Source: the human T2T-CHM13v2.0 reference genome, Homo sapiens. From it: a DNA stretch of 64,000 nucleotides. The notes beneath the pieces were generated by a model, which saw only the letters and a list, made by a program, of their open reading frames with translations, ran no database searches and was not told the origin of the DNA. The translations under genes and the position numbers were made by a program. The stretch lies in the NCBI GenBank assembly GCA_009914755.4, contig CP068257.2, positions 37,024,001-37,088,000 on the forward strand, in the 5' to 3' direction. Each line of letters begins with the position of its first letter. The stretch's first letter is position 1. This document shows positions 6,105 to 40,127 of this stretch, piece after piece.

Positions 6105-9100
6105 TCATGGTAACATCCTTTACCATTTAATCTCTCCTAGAAGACAGGGCATTGCCATACCATTACTCACTTGAAGATGAGAAGTGGAGGATTTGTTAGG
6201 ACTGCAGGTGATGAGGAGAGACTCAAACAGAATGTTAGATTCTGACCGATCTGCTCTGGTTTCACACACTTCTTTCCCTTCCTAAGAATCTGCTTTTCCC
6301 TTCATGTACTTTTTCCTATTTTCAGTATCACTGGGTCATTTCTAGTAACTCTGCTTAAGTGATCCTGTCAGCTACAGGGCGTGGGTGGGTTATTCAGCTC
6401 TGCCTCACAGAACACTCACCCTCCATCTCTGAGTCAGTTGCCTTTTAATGGAAATACTATTCGCTGATCATGTTCATACCGGCCCAGTTTTGTTTCTCTT
6501 GACAATGGCCCAGGTGTTTTTCTCTTCTGATTGAGTTTTGGGGTAAGCTCAGCATCTTTGTTGTTGTTGTTTGTTTTATTACATTTCCATTTTTACTGGA
6601 GGGGAAAGATCAGAGTCAATGTGATCCAGCTGCTGCACGTCAGTCCCGCCACATGACCTGCACTGTTACATCCAAAGCGTGCAGGGAAAAGGCTGCGTGC
6701 TCAGGTCCAGAAGTTCATAAAGGCAGCCTCTCCCATCAGCTCACCGGTGGCTGCCAGCCTCCATGCCGCCTTGCTCTCTCTAGGCTACTGGTTTTTGCAA
6801 CCTTCTGCTTTTGTCCACTCATAACTTTGATAAGTACCGTGTCACCTTCTCATACGTGGAAAACATGTGGTCAGCGATTCGGCATGTTTAATGGTGCTTG
6901 AACAATACAAAGGGGAGCTGTCATCCATCTTTTGTTTTCTCATTATCAGTTTTCAGGCCACGTTCTAAACAAGGACGACAACCAACAGAACATCATTCCC
7001 TGGTGTCCCAGTCCTTGCTTACTTTGAATCTCCTCACCACCTTCAGTCCTTTCTAAGGTCACGTACGGGCATCCACCGTCTTTTTTCCTAAACAGAATAC
7101 TTTGCAAAGTCAAGTATTGGCATTTCGTATTTAAGCCATGCATCCTCAAGGAGGCTAAAATTAGTTCTTGAAGGATGAAAAAAGTCTTATTCCTTTTCTG
7201 TATAAAGCACAGATATACCTAAATGTAGACATACGTATATGTATAATGCAAAGTACTAAAACAGTATATCTGTGGTATTAAATTTTCATGTGAGGAGGGA
7301 CAATTAGGAAAAAAAATCAGAAAATGCTTTTTAGGAGGTTGATCATGAAAACAGGAGGTTGGTCATGAAAAAAAAGGTTGAAAAACACTAATTTAAGCCT
7401 AAATGTAACTACATTACAAAATGTCACTACTTCTTGCTGGTTTTGGCACCAGTGCCTCAGGTGACACAGAAATACTAAGTTTTCTTTTATTCTGATATGC
7501 TTAAGGTATCCCCAAAATGATTTCTCTAAGTTGGGAATTGAAAGGGTTATGTTACACTCATTCACTCTTTAACAAGTCATATACACGTCACCTCCTATTT
7601 TAGAAGCCAATGGGTATTAAAGCACAAGAAATAAAACCACTGAAAAAGCAAAAAATAAAAAGGAAAGAAATAAAGACTCGGCACTCTGACACAGATGAAG
7701 CAGATGATTATGTTTATTTAAAACAGCAACTTATTTTTTAATGTCTATGAACTAAAGATTTCTCAGGACATCTTATTTCATGTTAAGTGTCCAATGCAGC
7801 AATCTTTGCCTTGCAAAGCCCATTACAAATAGGCTTGTGCATTCCAGAAAGGAAGCATGCATTTAACTTTCCCAAATATGTAATATGCAATTCTTTTTTT
7901 TAAATTTTTTACTTGCTTGGAGCAAAGACTGAAAGCAAGTATTTAATCTCGCTTCCTTTGCCAGTGCAAACGTAACTAATTCTGATCCTCATTTCCATTT
8001 CTTCCTTAATCTTTTTAAATCAGGGTTGGGCCAGCATTTATTCCCAACCTTTTGGAGAAGTAGCCTGTATTTCAAATGGGGCCGCGATGCTACCGCATGT
8101 TGTCCTGACCAGTGCCGTCCTGATCCTTGCTGGAGAAAGAAATGGAGGCATTTTACTCACAATCACAGAGCTTACGTATGCCAGCATTACAGAATGCAAA
8201 AAATAACTTTGCAACAATCTGAAAGGGTAATTTATGGAGCGTGGACAGTAAATGGGGTATGTTTTCTGTCCTGAAAATCCCAGATGAGGGCAGGCTTATG
8301 AATAATTTTCAAAAATCAGGAAGTCTGTGGAAATCCCTACTGTCTTATAAAGATTGCACCGTGCTCATCGCATCTCCCACGGCCTCTGCCTCCTCCTCCA
8401 CCTCCTCCGAGGTTCCTTGGTCCTGACTCCTAATGGCAAGGGCCAAAGAACACAGGCACCTGCCTCCAGCAAATCCACTCCGATTCCCCCTCATTCCCAG
8501 ACACAAATTTCCATGAAAACCAGACAGAGGACAGAAAGCAGGGGCAGGATATTCCAAAAGCACTTCAGATCTGCAGCCTGATTTCATTGGACTCGCTGGC
8601 TTGTTTCTTTTAGTCCCTGGGTGTGTTGACTGCAGGAGAAACCTCACTAACGACGACACTTCAGAACTGTGAGTCCAAACACTTAAGGAAGGACGTGCCC
8701 AGGAGGAAGGTCTAGAAGCTCAGAGACAGTGAGGAAGGGGCATTGCTCAGCGATGCTTAGATGCCTTCATGAGCTGACTCTACTGGGAGTCACTTGTCAT
8801 GCCCCTGAATCCACCCACACATCTCTATAACATATGAAAACTGTTCAGCCCAAAGGAAAAAATAAACTCGATGGTTCTCATTAATCCAAGTTTAACTAAA
8901 CACAACAGTTTCCAAGAGTACATTTCAGCCATTTCGTACCCGCAGATACCCAACCTGAGAAGCTGATGGGAAACGGCTGTTTTGGCATCACCGAGGGCTG
9001 CGGCAGGCAGCACCCAGGGGGCTTCTGTCTCCCCTGTGGCGCTGCAGCTGAGAGCCACACCCATGAGCTGATGACGTAGCGTTTCTCTCAAAGGTCTCCC

Positions 9101-10125
9101 TTGATGATGTGGCAAACTGCAAGGACCAAGCACAGAGGCACCTGGACACCAACCCTTCCCTGCGAGCCACATGGCCAGTCAAACGTTCTGGTTACCGGGG
9201 ATGACACGCTTTTTCCGACAAGATTTTAAGCACTTGTGGCTTACATCAATGTGGTCTCGTATTCATTGTGTGTTTAGACCACTTGCCTCGCACGTTCTCA
9301 TATTTACACATGTTCACTGAACGTAACCTCAAGTGAATTATTTAAGAAGCCTTAATGTGCTTCAGACTGCTCAAATATAATTTAGACTTTAAATTAAATT
9401 TGTACTCTGATACGAAACTGCAATGCTTGAATGCAGCTTACGGCATCAAGTGGACATGCAGGAGGCCTTGGAATAGAATTTCAGTTACCCCTAAAGGGCT
9501 CACACCTAGTGGCCCACGTTCCTTATAGGACGAAACAAGATTCAACTACAAAATCCAACTCATTGCCTACGTTTGAAAGCTGGGGAGCCTGCAGTACACA
9601 AGATAAAGTCTTGCTTCTCCATTTGTCCTTACGTGACCCTACAATGAAGCATCGCTACACACCAGAGACGTATAATGCTAGACGCGAGAACACACAGCCA
9701 TGCTCCTTGGTCAGAGGTTTTGGGTATGGTTGGGTGTTTTAATAAACCACAATATTCCTTCTCCTTCACTGTTTGGTTACCAATAATTGTGCTGCCTTAG
9801 GTGTAAAATTCAATATGGTGATTAGAGTCTAGAGAAGCCACACTTATTTTATTTAGCAGTTTTTGTTTTATTTTTACAGTAAGCACTGCCCACTGGGAAA
9901 AATAAACCAAAATAAAAAGAGTGAAATTCCCTTATTATGCACTAGCGATAATGAAAACAAACTTATCTACAAAGAACCACAGACGAGAAATTTGCCTAGA
10001 GACCAGCTACTGGAACTAAAAACAAATTTCTTATTCAGGAAAATGTGAATGAGTAAGAATCTGCTAGTGAAGTTTCTTACTTTGCACAAAAAATTAAATG
10101 AAATCTTAACTTTAAGAGTAGCATA

Positions 10126-33853: not shown

Positions 33854-35117
33854 TTGGTTTTGCTTAGACTGAAGACTTTTCAAAATCATGAGTCAGTTCT
33901 CCCTCTTCTCTTTTCATTCCTCAAATTCTCTGAAACTCTATTAAATATAGGAATTTAAAAATGGCTGTTGAATCAGTTGTTTCAGCTCTATTGTTGCTAA
34001 GCCACCTTTGAAACAATTAAGACACCATCAATTTTTCTGCAGTTTATATAGTACCAGTGTACAAAGTAGATACTCAGGAAAAGGTATGGGTAAATTAACT
34101 GATTCTGAAGAATTGAGAATTTGTCCCTGAGTTATATAAGAATGATTGTGTATATTTTTAGTTGAAAGCATGTAATAGCCCCTAAAGAGCTTATAACGCA
34201 AACGACAACTAGGTTCTCAGGTTTTAAATCTCTGGTTAACAGGCTCATGGGTACTACTTTGCGGGACATATTTTAAAATAGAGTGGGGTGGGGGGGAATG
34301 TACACAAGTATTATTTGAATTCTATTATCATTTACTTATTTAAAACTTATTTTTGTATTTCATGTTTACTACTTTTGTTTGCTTTGCTTTGATAGAAACT
34401 AAAACCCATCTTCTCTGACAAAGTACTGTTTTTGATATTCAATAAACAGAGCTTTCTTATTCATCCTTTTCTTTAAAAATTACTTTCCTGTATTACAATT
34501 TGTATTTGTTAATCACGTATGGAATCAGCTTTTAAACAGAAGAAAACAAGCATCAGCTCTGTAGAAACTGCAGACGTTTTGGAGAAGATTAAACAAGACA
34601 GCTTCAAAAGACCAAAACATGAATCCACCCCAGCCCTTGTTGGTCAAACCACGTGGGCCTTCAGCTGTCTCGTCTTTCCAGAGTCTCATCTTATGATGAA
34701 AGTTAAATAAATTCCGTTGTAAATGATGTTTTTTAAAACTCTAAATGAGAGAAGCAATAGAGACTTTACCCCCTAATAATGGGATACTATATGTAATTCT
34801 TAAAATTAATAAAGGCCATTTGTGCTGTAAGAATTCTCCATTTTCTTTTGTAAAGGTGACTTCTTTAACCTGAATATTTTAACAGGTCAATAAGATATGC
34901 CCCTGGTAGTAGAGTGACATTTTTTTTCACTCCTCAAAAGCCATTTTATAAGACAATGCACATTTCAACATCAGCGTAAATAACAGCCTTGTTTGAAAAC
35001 TCAGGAGACAGCTTTACTCTTTCTCTGCCTTCTTTCCTACCCAGCCCTCCCCCTCCTCTGAACTGAACCACACCTCTCTAGAAATACTCGCGTTCTTAAT
35101 GAAAACCATATTTAAAA

Positions 35118-35147
35118 AAAAAAAAAAAAAAAAAAAAAGTTTGCATG
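35118..35147. repeat. poly(A) tract (~30 nt)
   Basis: aaaaaaaaaaaaaaaaaaaaaaaaaaaaag. Confidence 0.9.
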
Positions 35148-35560
35148 ACCCGCCGAAACGCCTGGACAATCTTTAATGTCAGCTTCAGACGACACGTGTC
35201 TTATGAAAGTCTGGGGCCCTGCTCGTCTGGCAGAGCGAGCTCTGTCCCACATCTTTATGAGAAAGAGGGACAAAACTTCTGTTTTTGGCATTTTATGTTG
35301 GAGTCTGTTTTAAGCAAGGAGGAAAAAAATAGCAAAGTAGAGTCTAGACAGAAAAGATGGGGGTGAAATCTGGAAGCCATTCACCCCGGCAAGGGCAGCA
35401 GCAGCCCGTCGGCAGCAGGGATCGCCTTACGCTGCCTAATTACACATGAAAAATGTACACACCGCGTCTCTCAACTGCTTGGAAAAATAGATGCTAGGAT
35501 GGCGCTTTTGGACGGTGGCAACCGAACCAGTTGTATATTCTGGATGCGGGATCTCTTACT
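35140..35560. promoter_or_regulatory. Candidate conserved non-coding element / enhancer (CpG-retaining, non-repeat block)
   Basis: At least 12 CpGs (gacccgccgaaacgcc, gacgacacgtgtc, gctcgtctggcagagcgagc, cccgtcggcagc, gatcgccttacgctgcctaattacaca, caccgcgtctc, ggcgcttttggacggtggcaaccgaacc, atgcgggatc, ccacgcatt) within about 420 bp of otherwise CpG-depleted AT-rich DNA. It includes a TAATTA homeodomain core. No repeat signature. Confidence 0.35.
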
Positions 35561-37281
35561 CCACGCATTTTGCAATGTGATTTCCTTTTTCAGGGGCATA
35601 GGTATTCCTTTCATCCTCCCCCCAAGATGTTTTAAATGTATTCTCAATTTGGCAAATGGTCACATTCTGTGAAGAATATTTAGATATTAAAGTAGGTTCC
35701 GTATGAGATCAAGTTAGACACATTTCTATGGTAAAGAGTTTGCCTAAGAGTAAGATCAAGACTATGAAGTCCTCAACATATTTTAGGATCTCATTGATGG
35801 CTTGAGGTGATTTGCAGTTACAAGGATAACTTCTAAATCATTAGCATGGCCTGCTCATGCAATCACAGACTTTGTGCCAAGCATAGGTCTACATTTTATG
35901 CAGGATAATGATTTTTTAAGAATCCTTTAATATAGTGTCTTTTTCCAGGAGTTCAAAGCATTTTTCACAGATATTAGCATTCAGTCACATAACATTCCTG
36001 GAATCTAAGGAGGGACGAGGCCGTAGCCAGGAGCTGACTGCAGAGGAGGTGTGTGTGCAGGCTTTGATGCTGGAGAGATTCTCCTGAAGAAAAAATGGTA
36101 GGAGAGAAATTTAGAACCCAACCTTAATGGATGTTAGAGAGCACAGCTAGCTGTGTGGGTGACAGAGAGACTGACAGACAGACTTGGAGAGGTAGGTAGA
36201 GGTCAGGGAAAGCCTGGGATAGAGAAACTGTCCAACAGAAGCTCAAAGCAAGTAAAAGAGGAGGCCAGGGAGCTATTTGGGGCCCTGAAAAGGGGTCATC
36301 TATGGAAGGTTTGGGAACATCAGGATACCAGGAAGGCTGGATGCCATGAGTGGTGAAGTCAATGGGATCAGCTCCTATGGGCTCTGGGTAAACACTGGGA
36401 AGGAGCCAGGAGCTGTGGGCAGAGTGGGTGACATGGCCTGGCTCAACTTGGGGGAGGCTCCCTGGCCAGGAGAGCAGAGACTGTGGGGGCTCTAAGGGGA
36501 GACTTAGGGAGAGACTGTTGTTCTGCTAGCAATAGATGGTGATGGTTTGGACCAGAAAGAGGAAGAATCTAGAAATACTTCCCTAAGGCTGATTGAAGGC
36601 TGACTCTATCATCCTGCCAGGGGCCCAGGGGGAATTGCAGTAGGTACAGCAAACATCAAAGACAAGGGCCTCCTTCTGACATGAAACATCTATGTGCCCT
36701 TCAGTGAGGATTATTAAGTGCAGCGGGGCAATCCCACCAAAGACCACCAAAGAACCACACCAAAGACCACTAAGCAGCCACTAAAAATGATATCTTGGGG
36801 TGGTAACTGCAGCAGGTGTACACTTCAGTCAAAATACCTCAAATTGTGCATACACTTAATCTCTGGCCAGTTTATTCTATACAGAACATGCTTTAATAAT
36901 AAATAGTAAATTAATTATTTAACCAACGTAAGGCTAGGATAAGCCTCGTACGTGCCTCTGAATGTCCCTGGGGCTGTACTTCTGATTGAAACCACAATAG
37001 CAATAGCTAATATTTTCCTCATGTTGCCAATGTGACCAGAATTCTTCTAAGCATTTTGCATAGATTAATTCAGTTAACAGTTCCAGCAATGCTATCAGAT
37101 AGATACTATTATTATCTCCATTTCGCTTGGGAAGAAACGGAGTCACAGAAAGTTCGCGAGCTTTGGCCGAAATGTCTCATCAGTGGGAGCCTGAGGTTAT
37201 CTGCAGCCTCCTTCCCTCACAGGGCAACTCTAAGAACCAAGGAGAGGCAGGCACCAAAGGGCTCTGAAAAGTGCAAGGATC

Positions 37282-38760: not shown

Positions 38761-40127
38761 GAGGGCTTCCAAGGGCCCACATCAACCATGCAGGAATTTC
38801 TACTTTTAAAATTCTGGGTAAAATTGTATTCCCCCATTTCCCAGGCTGGGGTGTGGAGGTACCCAGGGAAGGGTCACAGCCAGCCTGTGGGACTTTGAAT
38901 GCTGTTCCATCTCCCAGATATCATATTGAGTGAAGGGCACCAAAGACCTTCCAGAGCTGGTACACATTAATGAGATCACATTGGAGAAAACATGAGGCAA
39001 AGCTCAAGATCATCATAGTTGTTCTTGTCTGGGCATACTACCATCTAACGGAAGGAAGCATAGTCTATGACCAAGACCAGGTAAAACAGTTAAACAACTG
39101 TGAAGGGGCTACTGAAATTGGACCGAGCATACAAAGAACCACCAGTGGGAATCTATGCCACCAACAACAACCCCTAATATCTCCCCAAAAGAAGAATTGA
39201 GGAAAGTGTCTCTCTTGTAGTTAGAGTCCATTTTTATTAACTGTCCATATAAATGTCAGACTAAAGAATTGTGCTTATAAAATGAACCTTAGGTATGACC
39301 CCGGAATTCAAAAATGCATACCCTTTGTGACCAGCAGAGACACATCTTCATTTGGGTTAAACACTGGCAGAAATAGAAACCAAGAGACGGGCTAGACCCT
39401 CAGTGGATGACCTTGAGCCATGACTTTGCTAAGTCTTTGCTTGCCCGGTATGGTTGTTAGATGACCTGATTGACAAGGTCTGCTCTAGTGATGTCCTACC
39501 AGGACTCCCAAGTATAACTTTTTCTATTATTGCTGTTTCTCAGCGGTCAGTGGGTGTAAGAGAAGCTAACCAGAGGAAGTGAATCACTTCCTGTGGTCAT
39601 TCTTCTGCCCACAGTTGAGCTATTTTTAACAGTCCATATAAAAATCATAAATCCAACCCTGGGCGTGTGTTTTATTTAACAAGTGCCTAATAAGTTAGGT
39701 GGAGGTGGAGACAAAAATGGGAAGACTTGAGCCAGTGAGGAGGAAACCATTAAATAAATTCCCCCAGATAATGATAATCTCTGTAGCTTCTTTTGGAAAA
39801 CTTGTCACAAAGAACAAGAATAATGTTTTTAGGGTCACTTCTATGGAAGTTCCCATTCCATATGGAAGAAACTAATTTATAAAGCAAAAGAGCTGCCCAA
39901 CTTTCACAGTGTCTGTAGTAAATTACTCAAAATATTCCAGCAACCAGCCAGGGTGATTTTTCAAAAATCTTTCTCTTCTTTATCACTGCTATTTCTTTCC
40001 ATTCGAATATGGTGGTATCATTTATACAAAATCTGTGAATAATTAGACAAGGAATGTGAAATGATTTACTAAGAAATGCTTGGAGATTAAGTACAATCTC
40101 ACTCCAGCATTGAATGAAGGAGAGTAA

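What the first reader, a model, noticed from the sequence alone, without database searches (positions are those of the whole stretch)
35140..35560. CpG-retaining, repeat-free ~420-bp block with a homeodomain TAATTA core. Candidate conserved enhancer
In the methylated vertebrate bulk genome CpG decays quickly. This block keeps at least 12 CpGs (e.g. gatcgccttacgctgcctaattacaca, ggcgcttttggacggtggcaaccgaaccag), while the flanking 10 kb has almost none outside Alus. The block is not a recognisable repeat. CpG retention outside islands is a hallmark either of purifying selection (conserved non-coding elements near developmental genes) or of a locally hypomethylated regulatory element. The TAATTA core fits a homeobox-regulated enhancer. 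The strand-asymmetric motif ggcaaccgaaccagttg could be a TF site.
Basis: inference. Interest (0 to 1): 0.55.

Follow-up and report, generated by a model that had tools for sequence, protein, structure and literature searches.

The report
Deeply conserved non-coding element, likely enhancer
This roughly 450-base stretch of primate non-coding DNA is about 85% identical to a bird or reptile sequence despite some 300 million years of separation, so it is a real conserved regulatory-type element of a well-known kind, probably a developmental enhancer, though no activity was tested.

Summary
The block 35140-35560 has 18 CpGs (observed/expected 0.73, against 0.29 for the window). It is the most CpG-dense repeat-free, non-island stretch in the 64 kb.

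One metagenome scan found a single orthologous contig. It carries the 3' end of a CR1 LINE, so it is host DNA from a sauropsid, most likely a bird. Window 35057-35503 aligns to it at 79% over 471 bp (E 9e-109). That is 85% without one spacer, and six sub-blocks are 93-100% identical. Almost nothing else in the 5.25 kb aligns, apart from a second block in the same order 4 kb downstream.

The element is not coding: every frame has stops and the indels break frame. It matches no Rfam family and folds no better than shuffled sequence.

Three corrections apply:
- The element starts about 80 bp further left, across an A25 run, and fades by about 35503.
- The "ggcaaccgaaccagttg" motif is poorly conserved.
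- Only 4 of 17 human CpGs are shared with the sauropsid, so the CpG richness is specific to the human lineage. Local hypomethylation or GC gain explains it better than base-level constraint.

Enhancer activity, the target gene and the identity of the locus remain untested. This is a known kind of element and of modest interest.

The parts
35057..35503 (.). Whole conserved non-coding element (human-like primate versus sauropsid contig L001 2391-2852)
   Evidence: blastn gives 79% identity over 471 bp, E 9e-109. The maximal scoring segment is 35057-35503. Excluding the spacer, 362 of 426 aligned columns are identical, 85%.
35057..35113 (.). Conserved sub-block A (TCTGAACTGAACCACACCTCTCTAGAAATACTCGCGTTCTTAATGAAAACCATATTT).
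   Evidence: 54/57 identical to L001 2391-2447.
35114..35138 (+). Pure A25 run forming most of a non-conserved spacer between sub-blocks A and B. The sauropsid has an unrelated ~25-nt spacer (TTGGGCATTTTTCTCCCCCCGCATG).
   Evidence: Sequence; alignment. The spacer between CCATATTT and TGCATGACC is about 28 nt here and about 25 nt in L001 (my count on the alignment).
35166..35215 (.). Conserved sub-block B, containing the 10-bp palindrome GACACGTGTC (CACGTG E-box, 35191-35200) and two CpGs shared with the sauropsid.
   Evidence: 49/50 identical. The palindrome occurs once in the window. CpGs at 35190 and 35195 are shared.
35241..35315 (.). Conserved sub-block C, with two TTTATG cores (CTTTATGAG, TTTTATGTT).
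   Evidence: 71/76 identical, with one 1-nt indel.
35323..35377 (.). Conserved sub-block D (AAAAAAATAGCAAAGTAGAGTCTAGACAGAAAAGATGGGGGTGAAATCTGGAAGC).
   Evidence: 51/55 identical. It follows a 13-nt indel.
35427..35461 (.). Conserved sub-block E (TTACGCTGCCTAATTACACATGAAAAATGTACACA), holding the TAATTA core at 35437-35442 and a shared CpG at 35430.
   Evidence: 35/35 identical.
35476..35493 (.). Conserved sub-block F (TGCTTGGAAAAATAGATG).
   Evidence: 18/18 identical.
35504..35560 (.). It is CpG-containing but only weakly conserved, and includes ggcaaccgaaccagttg.
   Evidence: 25-column identity is 0.52, 0.60 and 0.24. The motif matches at 11/17 positions (my count on the alignment).
39574..39693 (.). 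Second, weaker conserved block in the same order and orientation as the first in L001 (4970-5093). It supports orthology and a cluster of conserved elements.
   Evidence: blastn gives 70% identity over 129 bp, E 8.7e-8; alignment.
20000..21500 (.). Nearest CpG-island promoter region, about 14 kb upstream. It is a candidate target promoter, given as context only.
   Evidence: 178 CpGs in 1.5 kb at GC 0.61-0.75. By eye: TATAAAA at about 21084 on the + strand, and consensus splice donors on the - strand at about 21413 and about 20279. No link to the element was tested.

Best explanation
Window 35057-35503 is a non-coding element conserved across amniotes. It most likely acts as a cis-regulatory module, a developmental enhancer. 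Six short blocks of near-invariant sequence would serve as clustered binding sites for transcription factors, separated by spacers that are free to vary in sequence. The blocks include a TAATTA homeodomain-type core, a CACGTG E-box palindrome and TTTATG cores. The module would act on a promoter in the surrounding regulatory domain, for example the CpG island 14 kb upstream.

In the human lineage the element is also CpG- and GC-enriched. This is best explained by the element staying unmethylated in the germline or early embryo, so that CpGs escape deamination decay, possibly aided by GC-biased substitution.

Shown: deep conservation, non-coding status, block-and-spacer architecture, and lineage-specific CpG excess.
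Inferred: enhancer activity, the factors that bind, the target gene and hypomethylation.
For: 1. Conservation: one orthologous contig (Ga0065711_1026741) aligns at 79% over 471 bp, E 9e-109. That is 85% without the spacer. Six blocks total 291 columns, 278 of them identical.
2. Origin of the contig: L001 1-290 is the 3' end of a CR1 LINE ending in (TTCTGTGA)x3, the octamer tail described for CR1 in PMC2612034. Its ORF2 tail matches 3,753 proteins at up to 98% identity, including one on another contig of the same metagenome. Mouse and chicken diverged more than 300 My ago, and most non-coding DNA does not align between them (10.1101/2024.05.13.590087).
3. Island of conservation: the rest of L001 does not align to the window, except a second block in the same order.
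4. Not coding: at least 4 stops in every frame in both species, indels of 2, 1, 13, 1 and 1 nt, and no protein homologues.
5. No sign of a structured RNA: no Rfam match, and folding z-scores of -0.87 and -0.16.
6. CpG excess: 4.8 sd above repeat-free background.
7. Lineage-specific CpG and GC: 4 of 17 CpGs are shared. At mismatches the human base is G/C and the sauropsid base A/T 38 times, against 14 the other way (p = 0.0012).
8. Literature: most tested conserved non-coding elements act as enhancers in reporter assays (PMC3826495). CpG-rich conserved enhancers are a described class (10.1101/2020.08.05.237768; PMC11170920).
Against: - No functional or chromatin data could be consulted, so 'enhancer' rests on class statistics and architecture.
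- Only one non-primate orthologue was obtained. CpG changes therefore cannot be assigned to a lineage, and the depth of conservation beyond amniotes is unknown.
- The motif assignments are my reading of short consensus cores. TAATTA is not over-represented in the window.
- The block meets even permissive CpG-island criteria only marginally: one interval, 35190-35431, at GC 0.50 and observed/expected 0.61.
- The locus and target gene were not identified.
- Some conserved non-coding elements act as insulators or have no detectable reporter activity (PMC3826495).
Confidence: 0.6

Rival explanations
1. The element is a conserved cis-element of another type: an enhancer-blocking insulator, a silencer, or a Polycomb-tethering or poised element whose main role is topological rather than activating.
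For: Some conserved non-coding elements without enhancer activity act as insulators (PMC3826495). CpG-rich distal elements are linked to poised, Polycomb-associated states (PMC11170920). The block is CpG-enriched.
Against: By my reading of the alignment, there is no conserved CTCF-like core. The nearest resemblance, GCAGCAGGGATCGC at about 35412-35425, lies in a poorly conserved spacer. CpG density is only borderline for an orphan island. The sauropsid copy is not CpG-rich, so CpG-dependent recruitment cannot be the ancestral function.
Confidence: 0.17
2. The element is a conserved exon, promoter or untranslated segment of a transcript (a long non-coding RNA or an unannotated UTR), conserved for an RNA-level or transcription-initiation function.
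For: CpG enrichment suggests a weak alternative promoter. The block lies 14 kb from a CpG island that looks bidirectional. Human and sauropsid both keep a short minus-strand ORF starting MPK.
Against: By inspection of the alignment, no splice acceptor or donor is conserved at either edge on either strand. There is no TATA box or polyadenylation signal within the block. No Rfam family matches and there is no excess folding stability. The MPK ORF is read in different frames in its middle part because of 1-nt and 2-nt indels, so the peptide is not conserved. The pattern of invariant blocks with variable spacers is more typical of binding-site clusters (inference).
Confidence: 0.13
3. The block encodes a protein-coding exon or a micropeptide.
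For: Stop-free stretches of up to 101 codons overlap the block (35367-35669 +), and there is a 59-aa minus-strand ORF.
Against: Every frame has at least 4 stops across the element in both species. The indels break frame. Searches of the 5.8-billion-protein collection and of PDB sequences found nothing. Transitions and transversions are about equal (33 and 31), and substitution phase is only marginally uneven at 20/14/30.
Confidence: 0.02
4. The CpGs survive because the block is a young insertion (a retrocopy or transduced sequence next to the A-run), or the CpG cluster is chance.
For: A pure A25 run abuts the block.
Against: Sequence on both sides of the A-run is orthologous to one contiguous sauropsid sequence, so the block predates the mammal-sauropsid split. 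Only the spacer was replaced. The CpG count is 4.8 sd above repeat-free background and is the maximum in the window. No target-site duplication was found.
Confidence: 0.01

Closest known systems
Vertebrate conserved non-coding elements clustered around developmental genes (as catalogued in CONDOR, ANCORA, TFCONES and the VISTA Enhancer Browser; reviewed in PMC3826495)
   Same: It is several hundred bp long, non-coding, and far more conserved than its surroundings over more than 300 My. It sits near another conserved block in the same order and within reach of a CpG-island promoter. It meets typical catalogue thresholds such as 70% over 100 bp.
   Different: Conservation was shown against one sauropsid only. 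Fish or amphibian conservation is unknown, the neighbouring gene is unidentified, and no reporter data exist.
Ultraconserved non-coding elements of UCNEbase (at least 95% identity over at least 200 bp, human-chicken)
   Same: Six sub-blocks together reach 95.5% identity (278/291 columns).
   Different: The blocks are interrupted by variable spacers. The best 200-column window is 81% identical, so the criterion is not met against this sauropsid.
Conserved enhancers carrying orphan CpG islands, with species-specific turnover of the CpG content (hs754 near IRX2 in PMC11170920; poised enhancers in 10.1101/2020.08.05.237768)
   Same: It is an ancient constrained element whose human copy is much richer in CpG than a distant orthologue: observed/expected 0.76 against 0.54, with only 4 of 17 CpGs shared.
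   Different: It is only borderline by island criteria: one 242-bp interval at GC 0.50 and observed/expected 0.61, against a 608-bp island in hs754. The comparison is human with sauropsid, not among mammals. The direction of change and any effect on activity are unknown.

Membership tests
Conserved non-coding element (vertebrate) | Significant sequence identity between distant vertebrates above catalogue thresholds (for example at least 70% over at least 100 bp) | tested here: met
   79% over 471 bp, E 9e-109, against a sauropsid contig. Thresholds are from the table in PMC3826495.
Conserved non-coding element (vertebrate) | Does not encode protein | tested here: met
   At least 4 stops in all six frames in both species, frame-breaking indels, and no protein or PDB hits.
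Conserved non-coding element (vertebrate) | Orthologous (syntenic) rather than paralogous or repeat-derived match | tested here: inconclusive
   A second block lies in the same order and orientation 4.1 kb (human) and 2.2 kb (sauropsid) downstream, and there is no other copy in the window. However, only 5.25 kb of the 60.9-kb contig could be read, no flanking genes were compared, and no repeat library was available.
Ultraconserved non-coding element (UCNEbase definition) | At least 95% identity over at least 200 bp between human and chicken | tested here: not met
   The best 200-column window is 81% identical and the best 100-column window 85%. The species of the contig is not known to be chicken.
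Transcriptional enhancer | Drives tissue-specific reporter expression, or its deletion changes target-gene expression | not testable with these tools
   No experimental or VISTA data are accessible. A literature search for sequence cores found nothing.
Transcriptional enhancer | Accessible chromatin with H3K4me1/H3K27ac and transcription-factor occupancy | not testable with these tools
   No epigenomic tracks are available.
Transcriptional enhancer | Cluster of transcription-factor binding motifs | tested here: inconclusive
   TAATTA, the GACACGTGTC palindrome and TTTATG cores all lie inside invariant blocks. No motif library was available, and TAATTA alone is not enriched.
CpG island (orphan) | At least 200 bp, GC at least 50%, CpG observed/expected at least 0.6 (criteria as used in PMC11170920) | tested here: inconclusive
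   The whole block has GC 0.485, which fails, and observed/expected 0.73. A single CpG-bounded interval, 35190-35431 (242 bp, GC 0.50, observed/expected 0.61), just passes. Sliding 200-bp windows within 35320-35579 also pass.
Known structured RNA family (Rfam 15) | Covariance-model match at or near the gathering score | tested here: not met
   No hits at gathering score in the whole window. The best permissive hits are 7-16 bits, against thresholds of 47-60.
Young interspersed repeat or retro-insertion | Lineage-restricted presence, target-site duplication, and multiple genomic copies | tested here: not met
   It is present in a sauropsid orthologue on both sides of the A-run. No flanking direct repeat was found and there is no second copy in the window. 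Genome-wide copy number could not be tested.

The most novel reading that the evidence does not exclude
An enhancer conserved across amniotes has gained, specifically in the mammalian, primate or human lineage, a near-island density of CpGs and a GC shift (38 against 14 weak-to-strong differences). This would be a case of orphan-CpG-island turnover that changes the strength or poising of an ancient developmental enhancer, comparable to hs754.
Probability: 0.25. Interest if true: 0.45.

Novelty: already known. Interest (0 to 1): 0.25.

Why it matters
The result shows that CpG retention in a methylated primate genome correctly pointed a sequence-only reader to a truly constrained element, even though the CpGs are mostly not the constrained bases. 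If the element is an enhancer, it belongs to the regulatory landscape of a nearby, probably developmental, gene. Variants in it, including length changes of the embedded A25 run, would then be candidates for regulatory effects. As a class this is well-trodden ground: elements conserved between human and birds are routinely captured by conservation tracks, so the individual finding adds little beyond annotation.

Tried and rejected
- Block ORFs against proteins: a lookup of the 73-aa ORF found nothing on record. A search of the 5.8-billion-protein collection with concatenated six-frame segments of the block also found nothing. Spurious ORFs from vertebrate non-coding DNA are evidently not in that collection here.
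- Reaching more of the sauropsid contig: the same trick with ORFs of L001 gave no hits. Only 5.25 kb of the 60.9-kb contig could be read.
- Identifying the locus from coding exons: PDB sequence searches with concatenated open segments of at least 60 aa, covering 0.8-16 kb and 28-42.5 kb, found nothing. A codon-usage scan found no credible coding exon outside the GC-rich island. The gene remains unidentified.
- More orthologues: scans of bacterial and archaeal genome contigs and of viral contigs with two invariant cores found nothing.
- Literature: full-text searches for six sequence cores and for the metagenome identifiers found nothing.
- RNA: whole-window and permissive local Rfam scans gave nothing meaningful. 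Folding is no better than for shuffled sequence. Two-sequence covariation is uninformative.
- Rejected readings: young retro-insertion next to the A-run, chance CpG cluster, coding exon, solo LTR (TG...CA ends but no target-site duplication), and a CTCF site (the resemblance is not conserved).

Full report
**The observation.** The window is primate: Alu pairs flank the region. The flagged block 35140-35560 contains 18 CpGs at GC 0.485. Its CpG observed/expected ratio is 0.73, against 0.29 for the whole window. I compared it with all 42,455 repeat-free 421-bp windows outside the CpG island at 20.0-21.5 kb. Their mean is 4.2 CpGs (sd 2.9, maximum 19), and every window with 18 or more CpGs starts at 35127-35154. 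The flanking 10 kb has 0.90 CpG per 100 bp outside repeats, against 4.28 in the block. 'Almost none' is therefore overstated, but the contrast is real. The block has no second copy in the window. TAATTA is present at 35437-35442, but as a hexamer it is not special: there are 24 in the window against 16.9 +/- 4 expected.

**Finding an orthologue.** It returned one contig, Ga0065711_1026741 (60.9 kb, of which 5.25 kb is held as L001). BLAST aligns L001 2388-2852 to window 35054-35503 at 79% identity over 471 bp, E 9e-109. A more sensitive run adds one further block in the same order and orientation: L001 4970-5093 against window 39574-39693, 70% identity, E 8.7e-8. Nothing else in L001 aligns beyond low-complexity matches.

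**What the contig is.** L001 1-290 is the 3' end of a CR1 LINE. It encodes the ORF2 tail ...RKNFFPLRVTEPWNRLPREVVESPSLEIF and ends in three perfect TTCTGTGA octamers. This is the terminal repeat described for CR1 elements in birds (PMC2612034). That protein fragment matches 3,753 proteins at up to 98% identity, and one of them lies on another contig of the same JGI metagenome, 3300005287. The contig is therefore host DNA from a sauropsid, most likely a bird. I could not name the species or the sample. Mouse and chicken diverged more than 300 My ago, their non-coding DNA is mostly unalignable, and only about 10% of enhancers are sequence-conserved between them (10.1101/2024.05.13.590087).

**Anatomy.** The conserved element spans window 35057-35503. 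It consists of six near-invariant blocks:

| Block | Coordinates | Identity |
|---|---|---|
| A | 35057-35113 | 54/57 |
| B | 35166-35215 | 49/50 |
| C | 35241-35315 | 71/76 |
| D | 35323-35377 | 51/55 |
| E | 35427-35461 | 35/35 |
| F | 35476-35493 | 18/18 |

- The blocks are separated by variable spacers carrying indels of 2, 1, 13, 1 and 1 nt.
- Together the blocks are 278/291 identical. The whole element is 85% identical without the A-run spacer.
- The A25 run at 35114-35138 occupies a spacer that is an unrelated sequence of similar length in the sauropsid.
- To the right, conservation fades after about 35503.
- Block B contains the palindrome GACACGTGTC (a CACGTG E-box), which occurs once in the window.
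- Block E contains CTAATTAC, and block C contains two TTTATG cores.
- Reading these as bHLH, homeodomain and Hox/Cdx-type sites is my inference from consensus cores, not a tested result.

**What it is not.**
- Not coding. Every frame has at least 4 stops across the element in both species, the indels break frame, and protein and PDB searches found nothing. A short minus-strand ORF beginning MPK exists in both species, but its middle part is read in different frames, so the peptide is not conserved.
- Not a recognisable structured RNA. There are no Rfam matches at gathering score in the window, and only 7-16-bit noise locally. Folding z-scores are -0.87 (+ strand) and -0.16 (- strand).
- Not a young insertion. 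Sequence on both sides of the A-run is orthologous to one contiguous sauropsid sequence.
- Probably not a spliced exon. By inspection of the alignment, no splice site is conserved at either edge on either strand.

**The CpGs.** Of the 17 human CpGs inside the element, 4 are CpG in the sauropsid, 8 are TG or CA there, and 5 are something else. Of the 11 sauropsid CpGs, 4 are shared and only 2 are TG/CA in human. The sauropsid copy is barely CpG-enriched, at observed/expected 0.54 against 0.42 for the rest of L001. The human copy stands at 0.76 against 0.24 for its flanks. At mismatched positions the human base is G/C and the sauropsid base A/T 38 times, against 14 the other way (p = 0.0012).

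It fits protection from methylation-dependent decay, perhaps with GC-biased substitution, better than base-by-base purifying selection. Without an outgroup I cannot say which lineage changed.

By island criteria the block is borderline. The whole block fails on GC, and one CpG-bounded interval (35190-35431, 242 bp, GC 0.50, observed/expected 0.61) just passes the permissive definition used in PMC11170920.

**Most likely function.** The evidence is: several hundred bp conserved for more than 300 My, invariant blocks separated by free spacers, a second conserved block 4 kb away, and a CpG-island promoter 14 kb away. Together these match the known class of conserved non-coding elements around developmental genes. 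Most of those tested act as enhancers, and a minority act as insulators (PMC3826495).

CpG-rich conserved enhancers, and turnover of their CpG content between species, are also described (10.1101/2020.08.05.237768; PMC11170920). I therefore commit to a developmental enhancer that stays hypomethylated in the human germline or early embryo, with confidence about 0.6. That it is a functional constrained non-coding element of some kind I hold at about 0.9. Activity, bound factors, target gene and methylation state are all inferred.

**Limits.** Only one non-primate orthologue was found. I could not identify the locus or gene: there is no credible coding exon in the window and no literature hits for sequence cores. 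No chromatin, methylation or reporter data were accessible.

**Verdict.** This is an already known kind of element and of modest interest. The most novel reading still open is a lineage-specific gain of CpG density within an ancient enhancer.

Noticed in passing
window 39574-39693 (L001 4970-5093): A second, weaker element conserved between human and sauropsid (70% over 129 bp, E 8.7e-8). It lies in the same order and orientation as the main element, about 4.1 kb downstream in the window and 2.2 kb in the sauropsid contig. Conserved cores include CACTTCCTGTGGTCATTC, GCTATTTTTAACA and TTTTATTTAACAAGT.
   Followed up: partly
window 8800-9700 (also 6435-7276): Another repeat-free stretch with unusually many CpGs (up to 16-17 per 421 bp, second only to the flagged block) and a conserved-element look (for example TGATGACGTAGCG, CTTAATGTGCTTCAGACTGCTCAAATATAATTTAG). 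It may be a further conserved or hypomethylated element.
   Followed up: no
window 20000-21500: A strong CpG island (178 CpGs, GC up to 0.75) with a GAG/GGA-rich tract at about 20745-20815 and TATAAAA at about 21084 on the + strand. The - strand has two consensus splice donors (CTCAG|GTAAGC at about 21413, CTCG|GTAAGT at about 20279) and a CCAAT box at about 20470. It looks like a bidirectional promoter with non-coding first exons. The gene was not identified.
   Followed up: partly
window 35114-35138: A pure A25 mononucleotide run sits inside the conserved element, replacing an unrelated spacer of similar length in the sauropsid. It is likely to be length-polymorphic and would alter the spacing between two invariant blocks.
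   Followed up: partly
L001 1-290; L003 (Ga0065711_1030954); L002 (ENA ERZ27241762 k141_136160): JGI metagenome 3300005287 (Ga0065711) contains long contigs of sauropsid, probably avian, host DNA carrying CR1 fragments that were called as short 'genes'. The L001 CR1 tail matched 3,753 proteins in the protein collection, many listed as JGI or ENA metagenome entries. This is host contamination that can serve as an accidental vertebrate resource.
   Followed up: partly
window 35112-35291 (- strand) and L001 2422-2625 (- strand): Both species keep a short minus-strand ORF starting MPK.E and sharing ...QTFIRHVSSE.DIKDC.G.S.GHA. A 1-nt and a 2-nt indel shift the frame between the two shared parts, so the middle differs completely. 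I judged it a by-product of DNA conservation, not a peptide.
   Followed up: partly
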